46,037 nucleotides of DNA from Escherichia phage ClaudiaMuster_Bas77, in the sequence record PQ850598.1; one strand, given 5' to 3'. The translations under genes were made by a program, and so were the position numbers. The stretch's first letter is position 1. The number at the start of each line of letters is the position of its first letter. This document shows, one piece after another, positions 3,929 through 44,775 of this stretch. The notes under the pieces are model-generated. The model was not told where the DNA came from. It ran no database searches and saw only the letters and a program-made list of their open reading frames with translations.

Positions 3929-4089
3929 TGGCACTATTCTGGTCGTTCTGGATTCCACTTAATTTTATGTTCTGGTGGGCTATGGCTGCCGGAGTGAATG
4001 AACCAAGCAGGATACATTTCATGGTTGGCTCATTTTTCGCTGTGGTAACTGGTATTGTGCCATGCTTGTTGTATCAATATTTCAAATAG
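3928..4089 (+). CDS. small hydrophobic protein (53 aa)
   Basis: Hand-translated: MALFWSFWIPLNFMFWWAMAAGVNEPSRIHFMVGSFFAVVTGIVPCLLYQYFK; ATG overlaps upstream stop. Confidence 0.4.
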   Translation: MALFWSFWIPLNFMFWWAMAAGVNEPSRIHFMVGSFFAVVTGIVPCLLYQYFK

Positions 4090-16737: not shown

Positions 16738-16935
16738 ATGGCTAAATACGAAGTGATCGCTCGCGGAATCTTTGTTAAAGAGAAGGGCAAGATTCGTGAA
16801 TTGCAGCTTGGCGAGGTGATTACCGAGCCAGACGAGCATCTGCTACCAAAACTGCGCGTTATGCCAGAACTGGAAAAGACTTTCGAAGTCGCAACCCCGC
16901 AACAAAAGACGACAAAGAAAAAGAAAGCAGAGTAA
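16738..16935 (+). CDS. hypothetical protein (65 aa)
   Basis: Track ORF with GAGGTGA RBS, bracketed by two terminators. Confidence 0.5.
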   Translation: MAKYEVIARGIFVKEKGKIRELQLGEVITEPDEHLLPKLRVMPELEKTFEVATPQQKTTKKKKAE

Positions 16936-16938
16936 ACA

Positions 16939-16964
16939 AAACCCGCATCATGCGGGTTTTTTAT
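16939..16964. terminator. bidirectional rho-independent terminator
   Basis: ACCCGCAT c ATGCGGGT hairpin followed by TTTTTTATT; separates the plus-strand capsid operon from the converging minus-strand cassette. Confidence 0.65.
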
Positions 16965-16966
16965 TG

Positions 16967-17506
16967 CTACAGACGCATCGGCATAACAACAATCTTAGCA
17001 GTCTCGCCAGATGGCGCATTAAGACAGCAAACTGCGGCATTTGTGTTTCCATTAAGTTCAAATTTGATACAACTGAATTTAGGATTAAACAGCTTCGCCA
17101 CTTTCTCAACGTCAACCAGATATCCAGCATTGAAGCCAATTTCCTCTGCTGGCAAGGTCTGCTTCGGAATGACGCGATCAATATCAGGGAATCGCCCGTC
17201 AATCTCTTCACAGATACCAGCACCAACCATAACGCCAGCTTCATCATGATACGTTGCAATTTTCGACTTTGTATCAATGATGGCGTAGTCATAGCGTTTT
17301 GTTGGTGACTTGCCAATCTTGATAATCACATTTTCTGTAAGATTATTATCATGGTTTCCACCAATAAATGCGCGATGACCGTCAGTTGATGCAATACGAC
17401 CATCAGGCATAAAGCAAATGCCATTCAGGTAATATCGCACATCGTTGCGCGCCTGAAATATTAATGCTGATTCAAGTAATAGTTTGCCGATTTTTAGTTT
17501 CATCAC
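16967..17506 (-). CDS. truncated beta sliding clamp (DnaN)-like protein
   Basis: 179 aa; [54 protein letters not shown] and C-terminal IVVMPMRL match E. coli DnaN ([67 protein letters not shown]; recalled from memory). It lacks domain I and part of domain III. Confidence 0.65.
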   Translation of the reverse strand: [179 protein letters not shown]

Positions 17507-17676
17507 TTCACCTTAATCATATGCTGTTTTGCAACCTTCAGGCACTCCTCAAAAATGCCACCCTTCTTTGCGCTCTGATTGCGCTTGTAATACTGAACTG
17601 CCGCATCAATTGCCATCTGGTCGATTTCAGGCAGTTTGGTGCGTAGTTGTTTTTCAATGAATTGTTCTGGTGTCAT
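17503..17676 (-). CDS. hypothetical protein (57 aa)
   Basis: Hand-translated: MTPEQFIEKQLRTKLPEIDQMAIDAAVQYYKRNQSAKKGGIFEECLKVAKQHMIKVK; start overlaps the methyltransferase stop (TAATG), stop overlaps the clamp-like gene start. Confidence 0.4.
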   Translation of the reverse strand: MTPEQFIEKQLRTKLPEIDQMAIDAAVQYYKRNQSAKKGGIFEECLKVAKQHMIKVK

Positions 17677-18473
17677 TAAACGGACCTCATGAATGCTTTA
17701 ATGAATTCTGCTGCGACTTGTGGAACTATGGCATTGCCATAACCGCGCAATCGTCCCACTCTTGCGGATACCCCATGAGTTGCCTCGCAAAATCCGCCTG
17801 GTATGACTCTAGTTTCCTTATCTGCTCCATGGTTGGGTTTCCATGAATCCCATAAACATGAAGCCACATCTGGCGATAAAGAGTATCGTTCCTGAATTTT
17901 CCGTCCTTTCTGTAAAATGTCTTGCTGAGATCCCCGTAATCCTTCCATCCTCGCGCCGTTGGTGTCGCCCATCCTCGCGCCAAAGATGATTCTTTTCCTT
18001 TCCTGTGGAGAGCCGACGCTGCAAGCTGGCAATACTGACGCCCCGCAGGCGTAGCCTTTGTCTTCCAGGTTAAGGAATACAAAATCGAGCCAGTGCTTCC
18101 CAATTGCTGCTGCAACCTGCTCTCCAAACAGCAATTCAGGCTTGCACTCTCTGATGAGCCTGAGAAATGCTGGGGCAAGGTGTCGATCGTCGTCAAATCC
18201 GAGAGACTTACCGGCAACGCTAAACGGCTGGCAAGGTGGTGATCCTGTCCAGAGTCGAGTGCTTTCTGGTATTCCTGCCAGCTGGAGTGCAAGGGGCCAC
18301 CCTCCGATTCCGGCAAAGAAGTGACACTGTGTAAATCCTTCCAGGTCTGAAGGGGTGACTTCGGTGATTGATCGTTCATCGACATATCCGTAAGGAATTA
18401 GTTTATTGTTAATTAATTCACGCAGCCATGCCGCTGCGCCCTTGTCCCACTCATTGTAATAGTGGACCATCAT
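17676..18473 (-). CDS. DNA (cytosine-5)-methyltransferase, minimal
   Basis: C5-MTase motifs in canonical order: I FFAGIGG, IV SPPCQPFS, VI-like LFGEQV (ENV variant), VIII QERKR, X GNAIVPQV. Only ~265 aa with a short target-recognition region. Confidence 0.75.
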   Translation of the reverse strand: MMVHYYNEWDKGAAAWLRELINNKLIPYGYVDERSITEVTPSDLEGFTQCHFFAGIGGWPLALQLAGIPESTRLWTGSPPCQPFSVAGKSLGFDDDRHLAPAFLRLIRECKPELLFGEQVAAAIGKHWLDFVFLNLEDKGYACGASVLPACSVGSPQERKRIIFGARMGDTNGARMEGLRGSQQDILQKGRKIQERYSLSPDVASCLWDSWKPNHGADKETRVIPGGFCEATHGVSARVGRLRGYGNAIVPQVAAEFIKAFMRSV

Positions 18474-19282
18474 CACATCTTCTCCAGAATTGCCATCACC
18501 TCGTGAATATCAGCAACAGGAATCTGGATAAACTCCTCATTCTCTGCCACTACATGACCAGCAGGAAGAATAACGTGGTCAGCTGGCTTCAGTAACTCAA
18601 TCAGTCGGTCTACTGGCTTAATCTTTTTCGACTTAAGCACCTTCGCCGTTACCTTATCCTTGCCTTGCGCCTTCGCTTCTTCGACTGCCTCGTCGATAAC
18701 TTTAACCGCATCATCGCCATGTTCGCGAGTTACTGCTACGGCATTTGCATAGCTGATTTGCCCTGCACTGATTCGCGCTTTTACTTCGGCTGGCACATCA
18801 CCCAGTGACAGGTGCATCTGCACGTCAGAAACTGAGCGCCCTACCTTCTTGGCGATTTCCTCGTTGGTCCAGCCAAAACCCTTCAGTCGCGTGTAAGCCT
18901 TTGCGCGTTCAAACGGGTCAAGCTGCTTACCCTGACTGGACGACACCATGAAGGCGATTTTATCTGCTTCGCCTCCTGTGAAATCCTTGCACTCAATACG
19001 AACAATTGGTGCGCCACGCTCAATGGCACGCAACGCTCCGAGATAGCGATGCTGACCATCAAGAATGCGGATTCCCTTCTCGTCTGGAATAACTGTTAAT
19101 GCTGGCAATGGCTGACCTGACTCCCAGCACTGCGCGAAATACTCCACATGCTGCTCATCTGCCTCACGGATGTTGTATCCCGGCTCAAGATAGATTTGCT
19201 CAACTGGAACGAGATATGTTTTGTTAACAGCGATGCCGTTACGCGTTTCTTTGTCTGAATAGATTTTGCTGAGTGTTTTCAT
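18473..19282 (-). CDS. ParB-like nuclease-domain protein (DGQHR motif)
   Basis: Track ORF 18473..19294 (GTG); ATG at 19282. IRILDGQHRYLGALRAIERG carries the DGQHR signature of the DndB/ParB-like family; helix-turn-helix-like segment TNEEIAKKVGRSVSDV. Confidence 0.6.
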   Translation of the reverse strand: MKTLSKIYSDKETRNGIAVNKTYLVPVEQIYLEPGYNIREADEQHVEYFAQCWESGQPLPALTVIPDEKGIRILDGQHRYLGALRAIERGAPIVRIECKDFTGGEADKIAFMVSSSQGKQLDPFERAKAYTRLKGFGWTNEEIAKKVGRSVSDVQMHLSLGDVPAEVKARISAGQISYANAVAVTREHGDDAVKVIDEAVEEAKAQGKDKVTAKVLKSKKIKPVDRLIELLKPADHVILPAGHVVAENEEFIQIPVADIHEVMAILEKM

Positions 19283-19283
19283 A

Positions 19284-19481
19284 TCATTCACCACTTTCTT
19301 CTAACAATTGCTCATAATATGCGACGTATTCATTAGCCAGATGGTACAGGCGATCAGCAGACTTGCGTTCTGCATTGCTTAAGTCATCAATAGACTCAAT
19401 GTTGCCAATTGCATCAACACAATCATTGAAGTCTTGCTCCGTGTTACGGAATCTACAGTAGGACATGTTTGCCATAATCAC
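19284..19481 (-). CDS. hypothetical acidic protein (65 aa)
   Basis: Track ORF. Confidence 0.5.
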   Translation of the reverse strand: MIMANMSYCRFRNTEQDFNDCVDAIGNIESIDDLSNAERKSADRLYHLANEYVAYYEQLLEESGE

Positions 19482-19778: not shown

Positions 19779-19830
19779 ACTATAAACGCACCATCAATCT
19801 ACGTCAACAGGAATATGCTAAAATCATGCT
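19779..19830. promoter_or_regulatory. divergent promoter region (minus: TTGACG-17-TATAGT) with motif copies
   Basis: On the minus strand, TTGACG (rc of 19802-19807), 17-nt spacer, TATAGT (rc of 19779-19784). GTTTCTACGTCA and CAATCTACGTCAA motif copies present; plus-strand TAAAAT near 19819 precedes the 19855 gene. Confidence 0.55.
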
Positions 19831-36249: not shown

Positions 36250-36447
36250 TCACTCAAATTCTACAAAATCACCACCAACCATTTCGACGATAATGAATCC
36301 AGATTCATCATCATATGTTGCCTGCCATATAGCTCCAGTTTCGTCGCTTATGTTAAAGGTACCACCAAAAAAGTCAGCGCTATACCACTCATCTTCTTTA
36401 AATCTTTTGCTTGTTGAGCTTGCACAAAATAATTTCATTTGCATCAC
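36250..36447 (-). CDS. hypothetical acidic protein (65 aa)
   Basis: Track ORF. Confidence 0.45.
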   Translation of the reverse strand: MMQMKLFCASSTSKRFKEDEWYSADFFGGTFNISDETGAIWQATYDDESGFIIVEMVGGDFVEFE

Positions 36448-38082: not shown

Positions 38083-38509
38083 CCAGCAAGCCAAAATAGA
38101 AAAGTGTGGCTTTTTTTAGTTCATCAAGACCGTAAGCGATGGCTGCATAATGACCAAGCCTGCACATCTCTGTTAGAACTGCTGATTGATCCTTGCTCAC
38201 TCTGCTCTTACTTTTGTCACGGCGCTTTGCCTCAATCATTCCGCAGCAGTGGTTCGCACCCGGAGTCATTATTACGTTATCGCCTATTCCAGGCTTAACC
38301 CCCATCTTCTGGCGCTTCAGTACGAACTGGACGCGGCTGGATGTTCCTGTTTCATTCGGGACGTGAAACCATAGCACATCAGGGAAACAGTGTTGCATCC
38401 ATGTACCGTAACCCATCTGGTCAGTCTCCTCTTTTGGGCATTCGCCGCGATAACCGCTATCAAATACCCATATACCGCTATCAAGCTGCTTCACTTTGTT
38501 CTCCTGCAA
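38069..38509 (-). CDS. VRR-NUC domain nuclease
   Basis: 146 aa; PGIGDNVIMTPGANHCCGMIEAKR fits the VRR-NUC catalytic pattern (D ... ExK). Confidence 0.55.
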   Translation of the reverse strand: MQENKVKQLDSGIWVFDSGYRGECPKEETDQMGYGTWMQHCFPDVLWFHVPNETGTSSRVQFVLKRQKMGVKPGIGDNVIMTPGANHCCGMIEAKRRDKSKSRVSKDQSAVLTEMCRLGHYAAIAYGLDELKKATLFYFGLLDDVD

Positions 38510-40418
38510 AATCTTTTCTATGGATTATGTCGCGACCTTTATCATTAATGCGATGAGTGATGCGTTTTGGCGCTTTAATCAATCCAGCATACATCATGAA
38601 CTGCTTAGCATTCTGGCATTTCAGGATTTTCCCCGCCATTGACTTATCATCAAGGTGAGGAAAAATAGCCTTTGCCTTGAACATGTTTTTCATGTGAGTC
38701 GCACCGCCATATGGGTAGAAAACTTCGTTAGCCCAGCCTTCTTTGCCATCACAACGATTAATCCAGTAGCGATACAAAATACCTTCTCCATCCTTTGTTA
38801 GCTGGACTTTGAAATCAATAACATCAGCCCACTCATTATCGGTATACGCACGCTCATTCAGTGCCGCATTCGGGTCGCGCAACACGTGATCGCAATGCCG
38901 GCAATAGCGCGCCGTTGGGTCGTTTTTAGTGCCGCATCCATCATCAAAAATCCGTATTCCGTGCTTATCAAAACCGCAACGAATATAACTGAAAAACTCC
39001 TCGCAGCGACCATCTGGCGACAATGCATCTTTGCCAATGCATCGACGCGCATATGGGCTGTTCATTGTTCCACATGTATGACACGGAACTTGTTCGCCAC
39101 TGCGTTTTGAACGTTGCGCTTCAGCTTCTTCCAGAATTGGGTCTTCATATAGCTGACCAAGCTCAAACATCGTGCCTGAGAAATCAAGAACCAGATGGTT
39201 TTCTTTATGATACCCGGCGTCAATTTGGTCTTTCTTCAGCAGTCGCATTCCGCGACCAAGCAACTGAACAAGAAGGGTGAGCGACATTATTTTTCGCAAT
39301 ATAACGCTTGTATCCCATAGCGGGATGTTTACGCCGGTCGTCAAGCAACCAATTTGGAAAACATATTTAATCTTGCCAGTGTATGCATCCTTTAATGCCT
39401 TGCGTCTGGCTTTCTGTCCCATATCTTCGGTGACGATCGCATAACTTCCTTCAGGTAGGTATTTTGCCGCCTCCTGACAGTGCTTCTTGCCAGCGCATGT
39501 AATCAATACGCCGTTTCTGTTTTTTGTCAGCTCCATAACCTTGAGCATGATTTTCTGCGTGAGTGTTCCTTGCTCAAGGATTTCTTTCTGCATCTGCTTG
39601 AGTTGCTCGGTGGTAAATTCCTGAACTCCATCACTTCCTGACGCCTCAAATGCTGACAGGTCGTAATGCAGATCATCAATATCATGAAGACCAAAAATTG
39701 TAGGGACAAGAAAGCCATTATCAACAAGGTATTTGGTATCAATATTTATTATTTCATGCTTCCAGTAAGAACCCTTAATTGACTCAGTTCCACGAAATGG
39801 GCTGCCAGTGTAGCCAATAACAATGACATCGTGTCCGTATTTAGCTTTGCACCTACGGTTAAATTCGGTCATTATTACGCCGTACTGTGTGTCTGAATCT
39901 TCTCCAACAATATCCTCCCAGTTCACTTGATGGCACTCATCAACCAAAATATATCGTGGGCAAAAGTCTGAAAGTGCACACTTTGAGATAACATTGCCTG
40001 ATTCATCCTTTATGTCGAAAAGTGAGTTTTTTATTGTTCTCTCCGTCCCAGCAATAAGCGGGTATGCCGTTGACTTTCTGCCAAGAGACGCGCTGAAAAG
40101 TGAGTTTTTAACACTCAGATTCCATAGCTCTTCCGCATCCTGCTCAATAATTTCCCCCTGTCTGGCAATAACAAGGCCTTCCCACCCCATATCCTGAAAG
40201 CGTCGCGCAATCATGGCAATCATAATGGTCTTTCCAGCACCTACAGATGCCGTCACAAAACTTGGCTTAGGGTCTTTGCCAAACTTGCGGATAACTTCAG
40301 CCGTCTTTTCATAAACCAGCCACTGATATGGTCGCGGCTCAATCTCACCCGTATGAACAACTGACCGCAATTTGTCTATATCCAATTCAGCAATCATTGC
40401 GTCTATTTTATGCGTCAT
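38481..40418 (-). CDS. SF2 helicase with C-terminal zinc ribbons
   Basis: 645 aa; Walker A SVGAGKT, DEAH-like ILVDECHQ, helicase C-terminal motifs (QLLGRGMR), then Cys clusters (CHTCGT...C, CRHCDH). Confidence 0.8.
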   Translation of the reverse strand: MTHKIDAMIAELDIDKLRSVVHTGEIEPRPYQWLVYEKTAEVIRKFGKDPKPSFVTASVGAGKTIMIAMIARRFQDMGWEGLVIARQGEIIEQDAEELWNLSVKNSLFSASLGRKSTAYPLIAGTERTIKNSLFDIKDESGNVISKCALSDFCPRYILVDECHQVNWEDIVGEDSDTQYGVIMTEFNRRCKAKYGHDVIVIGYTGSPFRGTESIKGSYWKHEIINIDTKYLVDNGFLVPTIFGLHDIDDLHYDLSAFEASGSDGVQEFTTEQLKQMQKEILEQGTLTQKIMLKVMELTKNRNGVLITCAGKKHCQEAAKYLPEGSYAIVTEDMGQKARRKALKDAYTGKIKYVFQIGCLTTGVNIPLWDTSVILRKIMSLTLLVQLLGRGMRLLKKDQIDAGYHKENHLVLDFSGTMFELGQLYEDPILEEAEAQRSKRSGEQVPCHTCGTMNSPYARRCIGKDALSPDGRCEEFFSYIRCGFDKHGIRIFDDGCGTKNDPTARYCRHCDHVLRDPNAALNERAYTDNEWADVIDFKVQLTKDGEGILYRYWINRCDGKEGWANEVFYPYGGATHMKNMFKAKAIFPHLDDKSMAGKILKCQNAKQFMMYAGLIKAPKRITHRINDKGRDIIHRKDFAGEQSEAA

Positions 40419-44589: not shown

Positions 44590-44775
44590 ATGAACAAAGA
44601 AAGCACGTACAGCATCGACCAGATGAAGTTGTTCAGCGATATATGCATGGCATTGTCACAACAGGTTCCAAGTCTACCTGCTGATATGCGCTCAAATGCC
44701 ATCATTGATGCGGCAAACATGATTTGTGAGGCATATGCTATGACTGAAGATGAATATAAGGCATCGAAGAAATGA
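44590..44775 (+). CDS. hypothetical protein (61 aa)
   Basis: Track ORF with GAGGGTGAAGAG RBS. Confidence 0.5.
   Translation: MNKESTYSIDQMKLFSDICMALSQQVPSLPADMRSNAIIDAANMICEAYAMTEDEYKASKK

What the first reader, a model, noticed from the sequence alone, without database searches (positions are those of the whole stretch)
16967..17506. Phage-encoded truncated beta sliding clamp (DnaN) homolog
The 179-aa product aligns by eye to E. coli DnaN from about residue 135 to the C-terminus. Shared segments are DVRYYLNG...ATDGHR, the domain II-III linker [16 protein letters not shown]..DV and the final VVMPMRL that forms part of the clamp's protein-binding cleft. Domain I and roughly 50 residues of domain III are missing, so it cannot form a normal ring by itself. 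A fragment that keeps the dimer-interface and cleft residues could heterodimerise with or titrate host beta clamp (host replication shut-off or redirection), or act as a decoy for clamp-binding proteins. I am not aware of a described phage system of this kind.
Basis: partly seen in the sequence, partly recalled or inferred. Interest (0 to 1): 0.85.

Follow-up and report, generated by a model that had tools for sequence, protein, structure and literature searches.

The report
Phage half-size beta-clamp keeping the docking pocket
This phage gene encodes a conserved, half-length relative of the bacterial DNA sliding clamp. It has lost the parts needed to form the normal ring but kept almost every residue of the pocket where polymerases and repair proteins dock, so it probably captures host clamp-binding proteins; its function has never been tested.

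Summary
ORF 16967-17503(-) encodes 178 aa (start probably ATG 17503) and is homologous to E. coli DnaN (BLASTP 1e-11; family profile 8e-29). It covers domain II, the II-III linker and only the C-terminal half of domain III.

Domain I and DnaN 251-315 are absent. That stretch contains I272/L273, whose mutation makes beta monomeric.

Sixteen of the 17 mapped pocket residues are identical to E. coli. Pocket positions are 9 of the 13 best-conserved columns in a 134-member family of 165-215 aa proteins. dN/dS is 0.10-0.19, and the gene has an SD, start/stop overlap with the upstream ORF and a terminator, so it is a working gene, not a remnant.

The window is a Skatevirus-cluster siphophage with no DNA polymerase or clamp loader. 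The gene is the only protein detectably shared with phage EP23.

The family is not new: short phage polIII-beta homologues were noted in 2011, and Bcep781 gp15 is annotated as a beta fragment. It is untested and often mislabelled "RusA-like".

Best reading: a loader-independent module that binds clamp-binding motifs, acting as tether or decoy. Heterodimerisation through a retained dimer interface is not supported.

The parts
16967..17503 (-). CDS for the 178-aa mini-beta clamp (stop codon 16967-16969). The ORF listing extends it to GTG 17506, but ATG 17503 is the likely start.
   Evidence: Bas79_0040 is annotated with the same 178-aa extent.
17509..17514 (-). Shine-Dalgarno-like AAGGTG, 5 nt upstream of ATG 17503.
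   Evidence: Read directly from the sequence.
17503..17676 (-). Upstream 57-aa ORF. Its TGA stop (17505-17503) overlaps the ATG of the mini-clamp, an arrangement typical of translational coupling.
   Evidence: It has no Pfam match.
17676..18476 (-). C-5 cytosine DNA methyltransferase in the same leftward gene string.
   Evidence: Pfam PF00145, 1e-21.
18473..19294 (-). ParB-like HTH protein in the same leftward gene string.
   Evidence: Pfam HTH_ParB, 2.6e-11.
19779..19807 (-). Sigma-70-like promoter candidate (TTGACG-17-TATAGT, 10 of 12 matches) at the head of the leftward gene string.
   Evidence: This is a consensus match only and has not been tested.
16938..16960 (.). Bidirectional intrinsic-terminator-like hairpin immediately after the mini-clamp stop codon. 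It separates the gene from the convergent capsid-side genes.
   Evidence: Kagunavirus XY2 has the same arrangement after its homologue.

Best explanation
The gene encodes a 'mini-beta': a conserved, phage-borne derivative of the DnaN sliding clamp. It consists of domain II, the II-III linker and the C-terminal half of domain III.

Shown:
- Homology to DnaN and a clamp fold.
- Loss of domain I, of the first half of domain III (which carries the dimer interface) and, in this subfamily, of one channel-lining helix.
- Near-complete retention and strong family-wide conservation of the two-subsite pocket that binds clamp-binding motifs (CBMs, QL[SD]LF-like).
- Purifying selection.
- Horizontal spread as a single gene among otherwise unrelated phages.

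Inferred:
- It does not encircle DNA as a loader-dependent ring.
- It binds host-type CBMs through the preserved pocket.
- It probably works as a homodimeric open arc. My reading is that two half-domains pair to rebuild a central domain, giving a three-domain arc with one pocket per protomer.

Most likely role: a clamp-loader-independent docking platform that contacts DNA directly and holds CBM-bearing polymerases at phage DNA. Because this phage has no polymerase of its own, those would be host Pol III core or Pol I. In relatives that have a polymerase gene next to the mini-clamp, it could be the phage PolA and/or host enzymes.
For: Homology and fold.

Missing parts: DnaN 251-315 and domain I are absent, and no other DnaN fragment is encoded in the window.

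Pocket: the residue list comes from review PMC11139829. Sixteen of the 17 mapped residues are identical. Nine of the 13 most conserved family columns are pocket residues, and mean conservation is 0.76 for pocket columns against 0.37 for the rest.

Stable family: members are 165-215 aa; 1794 hits at E<1e-3 (a count that includes full-length DnaN proteins), 181 at E<1e-10; 271 phage records. dN/dS is 0.10-0.19.

No polymerase or clamp loader in this phage.

Link to polymerases: the gene lies directly downstream of a DNA polymerase gene in Acinetobacter phage 4316 and Edwardsiella phage PEi21, and beside a primase-polymerase in Pseudoalteromonas phage C7.

Charge: family pI is raised (median 8.3; this protein 7.6) against 5.25 for E. 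coli DnaN. K/R are conserved at positions 19, 134, 137 and 142. This meets the criterion Kazlauskas & Venclovas used to predict non-ring, directly DNA-binding clamps without loaders.

Against: - No binding, oligomer or DNA-binding data exist.
- The dimer evidence is indirect. It rests on a linker-fused monomer model with a 20-sequence alignment, and no coordinates or PAE were available. Foldseek gave TM of only 0.32-0.34 for the tandem model.
- This protein's own pI (7.6) is only mildly raised.
- A regular-expression scan found no canonical CBM in three phage PolAs (EP23, Bcep781, phage 4316). PEi21's polymerase has only two weak internal motif-like matches.
- In 6 of 11 lineages examined the gene is a lone, opposite-strand insert inside virion gene clusters, not in a replication operon.
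- It is the only protein detectably shared with EP23. That pattern fits a host-directed accessory or takeover gene at least as well as a replisome part.
Confidence: 0.4

Rival explanations
1. Decoy or sponge. The mini-clamp is a soluble copy of the beta pocket that titrates CBM-bearing host proteins away from the host clamp. Candidates are clamp-loader delta, Hda, MutS/MutL, Pol II/IV/V and Pol III alpha. The effect would be to shut off or derail host replication or repair, or to deregulate initiation, without any tethering to phage DNA.
For: - The pocket is conserved and host-identical while the ring-forming parts are lost.
- The gene is mobile as a single unit across phages with entirely different replication modules. 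It is the only protein detectably shared with EP23 and one of two shared with Bcep781.
- It often sits as a lone, separately terminated insert.
- Delta binds monomeric beta about 50-fold more tightly than the dimer.
- Titrating the clamp interactome has strong physiological effects: MuC overexpression causes over-initiation through its CBMs.
Against: - This phage has no polymerase and so should depend on the same host machinery a decoy would starve.
- Takeover genes are usually fast-evolving and lineage-restricted. This family is deeply conserved across phages of Enterobacteria, Burkholderia, Acinetobacter, Vibrio, Shewanella and Pseudomonas.
- The raised pI and conserved lysines are not needed for a decoy.
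- The gene is adjacent to polymerase genes in some phages.
Confidence: 0.3
2. Coupling factor outside replication. The mini-clamp links CBM-bearing regulators or modification enzymes to DNA, as T4 gp45 and the host clamp with MuC do for late transcription. An alternative version is that it protects phage processes from a clamp-dependent host factor or defence.
For: - The gene lies inside or beside late virion gene clusters in six lineages.
- It recurs near DNA methyltransferase and ParB-like genes.
- There is precedent for clamp-activated late transcription in Mu and T4.
Against: - No conserved partner gene was found, and no convincing CBM in phage proteins. QMKLF occurs in two small ORFs, but the Q is not conserved in ORF A's homologues and ORF B's motif degenerates in N15 gp42.
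- There is no PADLOC match.
- The gene is on the opposite strand to the late genes.
Confidence: 0.1
3. Clamp poison. The fragment heterodimerises with a host beta protomer through a retained dimer interface and blocks ring closure.
For: The free edge of domain II is homologous to the domain I edge used in the beta dimer. From memory, E. coli beta* (domains II+III) was reported to self-assemble, so a II-III' contact is conceivable.
Against: Both native interface halves are missing: domain I, and DnaN 251-315 including I272/L273. The edge strand 92-101 is not among the conserved positions. The tandem model prefers self-association.
Confidence: 0.05
4. It is a decaying remnant of a full-length phage dnaN, or it is the 'RusA-like Holliday junction resolvase' that many records call it.
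For: PHROG 3007 carries the RusA-like label, and GenBank records copy it. One homologue, in PEi21, has an in-frame stop.
Against: - dN/dS is 0.10-0.19.
- The N-terminus and length are conserved across hundreds of clusters.
- The gene has an SD and start/stop overlap with the upstream ORF.
- The AF2 model has pLDDT 96.9.
- The only Pfam, TIGR and PDB matches are DnaN, and the fold is a clamp.
Confidence: 0.02

Closest known systems
Bacterial beta sliding clamp DnaN (E. coli, PDB 2POL/1MMI)
   Same: Homologous sequence and fold for domain II, the II-III linker and the last beta-alpha-beta-beta-beta motif of domain III. Sixteen of 17 mapped CBM-pocket residues are identical, including the C-terminal VVMPMRL.
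   Different: It is 178 aa rather than 366 aa. It has no domain I and lacks DnaN 251-315, which carries dimer-interface residues I272/L273. In this subfamily the second helix of domain II is a short loop. Its pI is neutral to basic rather than acidic. It scores far below the DnaN family cut-offs.
Short phage polIII-beta homologues (Kazlauskas & Venclovas 2011; Bcep781 gp15 'DNA Pol III b subunit fragment'; PHROG 3007)
   Same: This is the same family. The protein matches PHROG 3007 over its full length at 2e-61 and Bcep781 gp15 at 32% identity. The length class is 165-215 aa.
   Different: [quoted passage not shown] Here the third domain is shown to be only half present, the pocket is shown to be the conserved feature, and a dimer model is proposed. 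No function was assigned in the earlier work.
E. coli beta* (UV-inducible internal-start product of dnaN, domains II+III; Skaliter, Paz-Elizur, Livneh 1996). Recalled from memory; not found in the searchable library.
   Same: An N-terminally shortened clamp that begins near the domain I/II boundary (about residue 135) and keeps the pocket.
   Different: From memory, beta* keeps the whole of domain III, was reported to behave as a trimer and needs the gamma complex. The phage protein lacks half of domain III and is a separately evolved gene family.
Herpesvirus UL42 / UL44 / BMRF1 non-ring processivity factors
   Different: They are PCNA-type proteins with two complete domains and no sequence relationship to this protein. 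Their partners are virus-encoded PolB. Here the pocket is host-beta-like and the phage has no polymerase.
Phage proteins that target the host clamp through CBM-like peptides (Twort gp168-beta complex, PDB 7EVP; Mu MuC)
   Same: They belong to the same interaction network of the clamp pocket and CBMs, exploited by phages.
   Different: The logic is opposite. Those proteins carry the motif and occupy the host pocket; this protein carries the pocket and would occupy host or phage motifs.

Membership tests
Beta sliding clamp DnaN (TIGR00663; Pfam DNA_pol3_beta/_2/_3) | Significant sequence homology to DnaN | tested here: met
   BLASTP 1e-11; phmmer against PDB 6e-11; family profile 8e-29.
Beta sliding clamp DnaN (TIGR00663; Pfam DNA_pol3_beta/_2/_3) | Score above the curated family cut-offs | tested here: not met
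   TIGR00663 36.2 bits against a cut-off of 137.65. Pfam beta_3 17.2 bits and beta_2 15.2 bits against a cut-off of 27.
Beta sliding clamp DnaN (TIGR00663; Pfam DNA_pol3_beta/_2/_3) | Three complete clamp domains in one chain of about 366 aa | tested here: not met
   The protein is 178 aa: domain II plus the C-terminal half of domain III. DnaN 1-124 and 251-315 have no counterpart, and no other DnaN piece is encoded in the window.
Beta sliding clamp DnaN (TIGR00663; Pfam DNA_pol3_beta/_2/_3) | Head-to-tail dimer interface (domain I edge with the domain III I272/L273 region) giving a closed ring | tested here: not met
   Both interface regions are deleted. The tandem model does not superpose in DnaN order.
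Beta sliding clamp DnaN (TIGR00663; Pfam DNA_pol3_beta/_2/_3) | Two-subsite CBM-binding pocket between domains II and III | tested here: met
   Sixteen of 17 mapped residues are identical (L177 becomes A). Pocket columns are the most conserved in the family. Actual peptide binding was not tested.
Beta sliding clamp DnaN (TIGR00663; Pfam DNA_pol3_beta/_2/_3) | Loaded on DNA by a clamp loader and confers processivity | not testable with these tools
   This requires biochemistry.
Short phage polIII-beta homologues (PHROG 3007) | Full-length match to the family profile | tested here: met
   phrog_3007 at 2e-61; residues 2-179 match profile positions 1-186 of 190.
Short phage polIII-beta homologues (PHROG 3007) | Length of about 165-215 aa with a conserved native N-terminus, encoded in a phage | tested here: met
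   The window is a Skatevirus-cluster phage.
RusA Holliday junction resolvase (the label attached to PHROG 3007) | RusA sequence family or fold | tested here: not met
   No RusA family appears among Pfam hits up to E=10. All PDB sequence and structure matches are clamps.
Non-ring, loader-independent clamp-fold processivity factors (UL42/UL44-like, functional class) | Clamp fold with no cognate clamp loader in the genome | tested here: met
   The fold is a clamp. No clamp loader appears in the Bas79 annotation or in the Pfam scan of replication genes.
Non-ring, loader-independent clamp-fold processivity factors (UL42/UL44-like, functional class) | Raised positive charge or basic DNA-binding face | tested here: inconclusive
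   pI is 7.6 here and 8.3 for the family median, against 5.25 for DnaN. K/R are conserved at 19, 134, 137 and 142. No surface map could be computed.
Non-ring, loader-independent clamp-fold processivity factors (UL42/UL44-like, functional class) | Binds a DNA polymerase and DNA and raises processivity | not testable with these tools
   The only evidence is gene adjacency to polymerase genes in two or three other phages.

The most novel reading that the evidence does not exclude
A new sliding-clamp architecture. Protomers of one and a half domains pair their orphan half-domains head-to-head to rebuild a whole central domain. The result is an open three-domain arc (or a four-protomer ring) with CBM pockets on opposite faces. 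It would need no clamp loader and would let a polymerase-less phage commandeer host polymerases directly onto its DNA.
Probability: 0.2. Interest if true: 0.8.

Novelty: new variant of a known kind. Interest (0 to 1): 0.58.

Why it matters
The beta-clamp pocket is the hub through which bacterial polymerases, the clamp loader, Hda, mismatch repair and several phage factors communicate. A widespread phage protein that carries only this pocket, without the ring, would be a natural pocket-only tool.

The family occurs in at least 271 sequenced phages, including tractable BASEL Skatevirus, Kagunavirus and Dhillonvirus isolates.

It directly addresses a question left open by Kazlauskas et al. (2016): what do stand-alone polIII-beta homologues do in viruses that have no polymerase or clamp loader?

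Any of three outcomes would add a new mode of phage-host interaction at the replisome: a loader-free tether, a decoy for host CBM proteins, or a new oligomeric clamp form.

The work also corrects a spreading misannotation ("RusA-like Holliday junction resolvase").

Tried and rejected
1. CBM-bearing phage partners. A motif scan of all window ORFs found QMKLF in two small ORFs (36250-36447-, 44590-44775+). In ORF A's homologues the Q is lost and only an N-terminal MKLF is kept. ORF B's motif is kept in sortregn (DQMALF) but degenerates in N15 gp42 (NQIALV). Both ORFs occur in only 13-23 phage records. I dropped them as partners.

2. Canonical CBMs in the PolA genes of mini-clamp phages. None was found in EP23, Bcep781 or phage 4316; PEi21's polymerase has two weak internal matches.

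3. The search for related loci with family alignments A1 and A3. Contexts were sampled from GenBank phage records instead.

5. DSSP differences between the monomer and tandem models. Strands 121-125 and 145-151 lengthen in the tandem model. This is ambiguous because they could pair within one chain, so I did not use it as evidence.

6. Helical-wheel analysis of helix 126-139. It shows a 180-degree hydrophobic arc and a lysine face, which is compatible with the dimer model but not diagnostic.

7. Promoter scans upstream of lone homologues. Nothing convincing was found.

8. Domain fusions in longer relatives (P0235 and others). They contain only DnaN domains and give no functional hint.

9. PADLOC: no match.

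10. Literature. Nothing was found on function. Bas79 is not discussed at the gene level. The beta* papers are not in the library.

Full report
WHAT IS THERE

The ORF reported at 16967-17506 on the minus strand is real. Reading the sequence, GTG 17506 is followed directly by ATG 17503. The TGA stop of the upstream 57-aa ORF (17505-17503) overlaps that ATG, and AAGGTG lies 5 nt upstream. The product is therefore most likely 178 aa starting MKLKIG. This agrees with the Bas79_0040 annotation and with a Met conserved at alignment position 1 in 90% of relatives.

The gene is the last in a leftward string: an 86-aa ORF, a 65-aa ORF, a ParB-like HTH protein, a C5 cytosine methyltransferase, a 57-aa ORF and then the mini-clamp. 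The string follows a sigma-70-like site at 19807-19779 and ends at a bidirectional terminator-like hairpin at 16938-16960.

The window is essentially a whole siphophage genome. It is about 99% identical to Escherichia phage SusanneMuster_Bas79, a member of the Skatevirus cluster of the BASEL collection (PMC11990801).

IS IT A DnaN RELATIVE?

Yes.
- phmmer against PDB sequences gives E. coli beta at 6e-11.
- BLASTP against MG1655 DnaN gives 1e-11 for q7-113 against DnaN 136-250, and 1e-5 for q121-178 against DnaN 316-366.
- A profile of 134 family members hits E. coli beta at 8e-29.
- An AF2 model built on that alignment is very confident (pLDDT 96.9, pTM 0.91).
- The model's best PDB matches are beta-clamp chains (Foldseek E about 1e-7, TMq 0.63-0.66).
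- Curated family thresholds are not reached: Pfam 15-17 bits against 27, and TIGR00663 36 bits against 138. It is a derivative, not a DnaN.

ANATOMY

The protein starts at the domain I/II boundary and has domain II, the [10 protein letters not shown] linker and then only the last beta-alpha-beta-beta-beta motif of domain III (EIGFN..Y helix through VVMPMRL).
- DnaN 1-124 (domain I) has no counterpart.
- DnaN 251-315 (first half of domain III) has no counterpart.
- No other DnaN fragment is encoded anywhere in the window.
- In this subfamily the second helix of domain II is replaced by a short conserved GKxPxK loop. Some relatives, such as Bcep781 gp15 and the phage 4316 protein, appear from their sequences to keep that helix.
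- The deleted domain III segment contains I272/L273, whose mutation makes beta monomeric (review PMC11139829).

Both halves of the native dimer interface are therefore gone.

WHAT SELECTION KEEPS

The review lists the pocket residues as follows.
- Subsite I: R152, L155, T172, G174, H175, R176, L177, P242, R246, V247, V360, M362.
- Subsite II: H175, N320, Y323, V344, M362, P363, M364, R365.

Seventeen of these map onto the phage protein and 16 are identical; L177 becomes A45.

In the 134-sequence family alignment (members 27-92% identical to the query), nine of the 13 most conserved columns are pocket residues: G42, P106, R23, M174, H43, Y128, T40, P175 and L26. The mean frequency of the commonest residue is 0.76 at pocket columns against 0.37 elsewhere.

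Against close relatives HC6 and ZCKP8, dN/dS is 0.10-0.19.

The family is large and stable in length.
- The all-against-all representative search gave 1794 hits at E<1e-3 and 181 at E<1e-10. The first count includes full-length DnaN proteins.
- Nearly all of the top 150 are 165-215 aa.
- tblastn finds it in 271 phage records.

This is a working gene family whose conserved feature is the clamp's protein-docking pocket.

GENOMIC BEHAVIOUR

The window phage has SSB, a RecE-like exonuclease, an AAA_24 protein, two helicases and a primase. It has no DNA polymerase and no clamp loader.

By tblastn at E<=1e-4, the mini-clamp is the only window protein detectably shared with Dhillonvirus EP23 (39% identity). 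It is one of two shared with the Burkholderia myovirus Bcep781. Both of those phages have their own PolA.

Across 11 lineages sampled:
- It is a lone, opposite-strand gene inside or beside the virion gene cluster in six: the window, EP23, Bcep781, Kagunavirus XY2, Shewanella phage 1/41 and Morganella phage Henu15.
- It is directly downstream of a DNA polymerase gene in Acinetobacter phage 4316 and Edwardsiella phage PEi21.
- It is next to a primase-polymerase in Pseudoalteromonas phage C7.
- It lies among methyltransferase or ParB-like genes in Skarpretter, Riah and the window.

It therefore travels as a self-sufficient single gene with no constant phage partner. That argues its ligand is something common to all hosts: host-type CBMs and/or DNA.

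OLIGOMER STATE (INDIRECT)

I fused two copies with a 30-residue Gly/Ser linker, did the same for 19 homologues, and ran AF2 on that alignment.
- The result was pLDDT 81.6 and pTM 0.74, with only the linker disordered.
- By my estimate, two 178-residue bodies with undefined relative placement would give a pTM near 0.45. AF2 is therefore committing to an interface.
- Foldseek, which aligns in sequence order, did not superpose the pair on a DnaN chain (TM 0.32-0.34). The copies are thus not arranged head-to-tail like successive DnaN domains.
- More than 178 aligned residues means parts of both copies lie on one beta protomer at once. That indicates a clamp-like arc.

My reading follows from the internal pseudo-twofold symmetry of each clamp domain. 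The two orphan half-domains pair head-to-head to rebuild a central domain, giving II - C:C' - II'. Under that geometry the two pockets would sit on opposite faces.

This reading is an inference. I had no coordinates or PAE, the alignment was shallow, and the linker trick can mislead.

CHARGE

The family pI is shifted upwards: median 8.3, and 7.6 for this protein, against 5.25 for E. coli DnaN. K/R are conserved at positions 19 (the H148 position in the loop preceding R152), 134, 137 and 142, on the polar face of the surviving domain III helix.

MECHANISM

The step I hold with fair confidence, about 0.7, is that the protein presents a host-like CBM pocket without forming the loader-dependent ring, and therefore binds CBM-bearing proteins. 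What follows from that is uncertain.

I favour a loader-independent docking or tethering factor (0.4). In this model an open, probably dimeric arc sits on DNA and holds CBM-bearing polymerases. For this polymerase-less phage those would be host Pol III core or Pol I. The supporting points are polymerase-gene adjacency in some phages, the pI shift, the dimer model and the herpesvirus precedent.

The main rival is a soluble decoy that titrates host CBM proteins (0.3). Candidates are delta, which binds monomeric beta about 50-fold more tightly than the dimer, Hda, MutS/L and the translesion polymerases. This rival fits the single-gene mobility and the moron-like placement. It sits awkwardly with a phage that must itself use host Pol III.

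Three further readings are less likely. A non-replicative coupling role, as with MuC or gp45 in late transcription (PMC12867686), is possible (0.1). Poisoning host beta through a retained dimer interface is unlikely (0.05). Pseudogene or RusA readings are excluded.

WHAT IS KNOWN

The family is not new as an observation.
- Bcep781 gp15 is annotated 'DNA Pol III b subunit fragment'.
- Kazlauskas et al. 2016 (PMC4889955) explicitly asked what stand-alone polIII-beta homologues do in viruses without polymerases.
- Many GenBank records say 'DNA polymerase III beta subunit'.
- I found no functional or structural study.
- Pharokka/PHROG-derived records label it 'RusA-like Holliday junction resolvase', which the data contradict.

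As far as I could find, the following are new here:
- the precise anatomy (only half of domain III);
- the demonstration that the CBM pocket is the selected feature;
- the gene's status as a mobile single-gene module;
- the half-domain-pairing dimer hypothesis.

VERDICT

The protein is a new variant of a known kind: a sliding-clamp derivative belonging to a previously noticed but uncharacterised phage family. Interest is moderate to high because it is widespread, sits in tractable phages and bears on an open question.

Noticed in passing
window 16967-17503(-); L001 16603-17139 (Bas79_0040); many records: PHROG 3007 is labelled 'RusA-like Holliday junction resolvase', and this label is being copied into new GenBank phage records for a protein that is clearly a DnaN derivative. 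It is a propagating misannotation.
   Followed up: yes
L011 (Edwardsiella phage PEi21) 28500-29027(-): The PEi21 homologue, directly downstream of the DNA polymerase gene, has an in-frame stop at the GKxPxK-loop position and is annotated as two ORFs. It could be a pseudogene, a sequencing error or read-through.
   Followed up: no
window 36250-36447(-) and 44590-44775(+): Two small ORFs both contain QMKLF, which resembles a clamp-binding motif. One is N-terminal (MQMKLF); the other is at residues 11-15. In ORF A's homologues the Q is lost. ORF B's motif is kept in sortregn (DQMALF) but degenerates in N15 gp42.
   Followed up: yes
whole window versus L003 (EP23) and L004 (Bcep781): By tblastn (E<=1e-4) the mini-clamp is the only window protein shared with EP23. 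For Bcep781 it is one of two, the other being the 645-aa SF2 helicase at 38481-40418. The gene appears to move between otherwise unrelated phages.
   Followed up: partly
L018 (Escherichia phage HC6) homologue: HC6 has R in place of the near-invariant pocket histidine (H43, equivalent to DnaN H175): TDGRRAF instead of TDGHRAF. This is a natural pocket variant.
   Followed up: no
window 16938-16960; L013 (Kagunavirus XY2) 3988-4007: In both phages the mini-clamp gene ends at a bidirectional terminator-like hairpin shared with convergent virion genes. This is consistent with an independent transcription unit embedded in the late region.
   Followed up: partly
window 16738-16935(+): A 65-aa ORF lies between the major capsid gene and the terminator. 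It has a lysine-rich tail (QQKTTKKKKAE) and its function is unknown.
   Followed up: no
whole window: The phage encodes two helicases, a primase, SSB, a RecE-like exonuclease and an AAA_24 protein, but no DNA polymerase. It must rely on host polymerases.
   Followed up: partly
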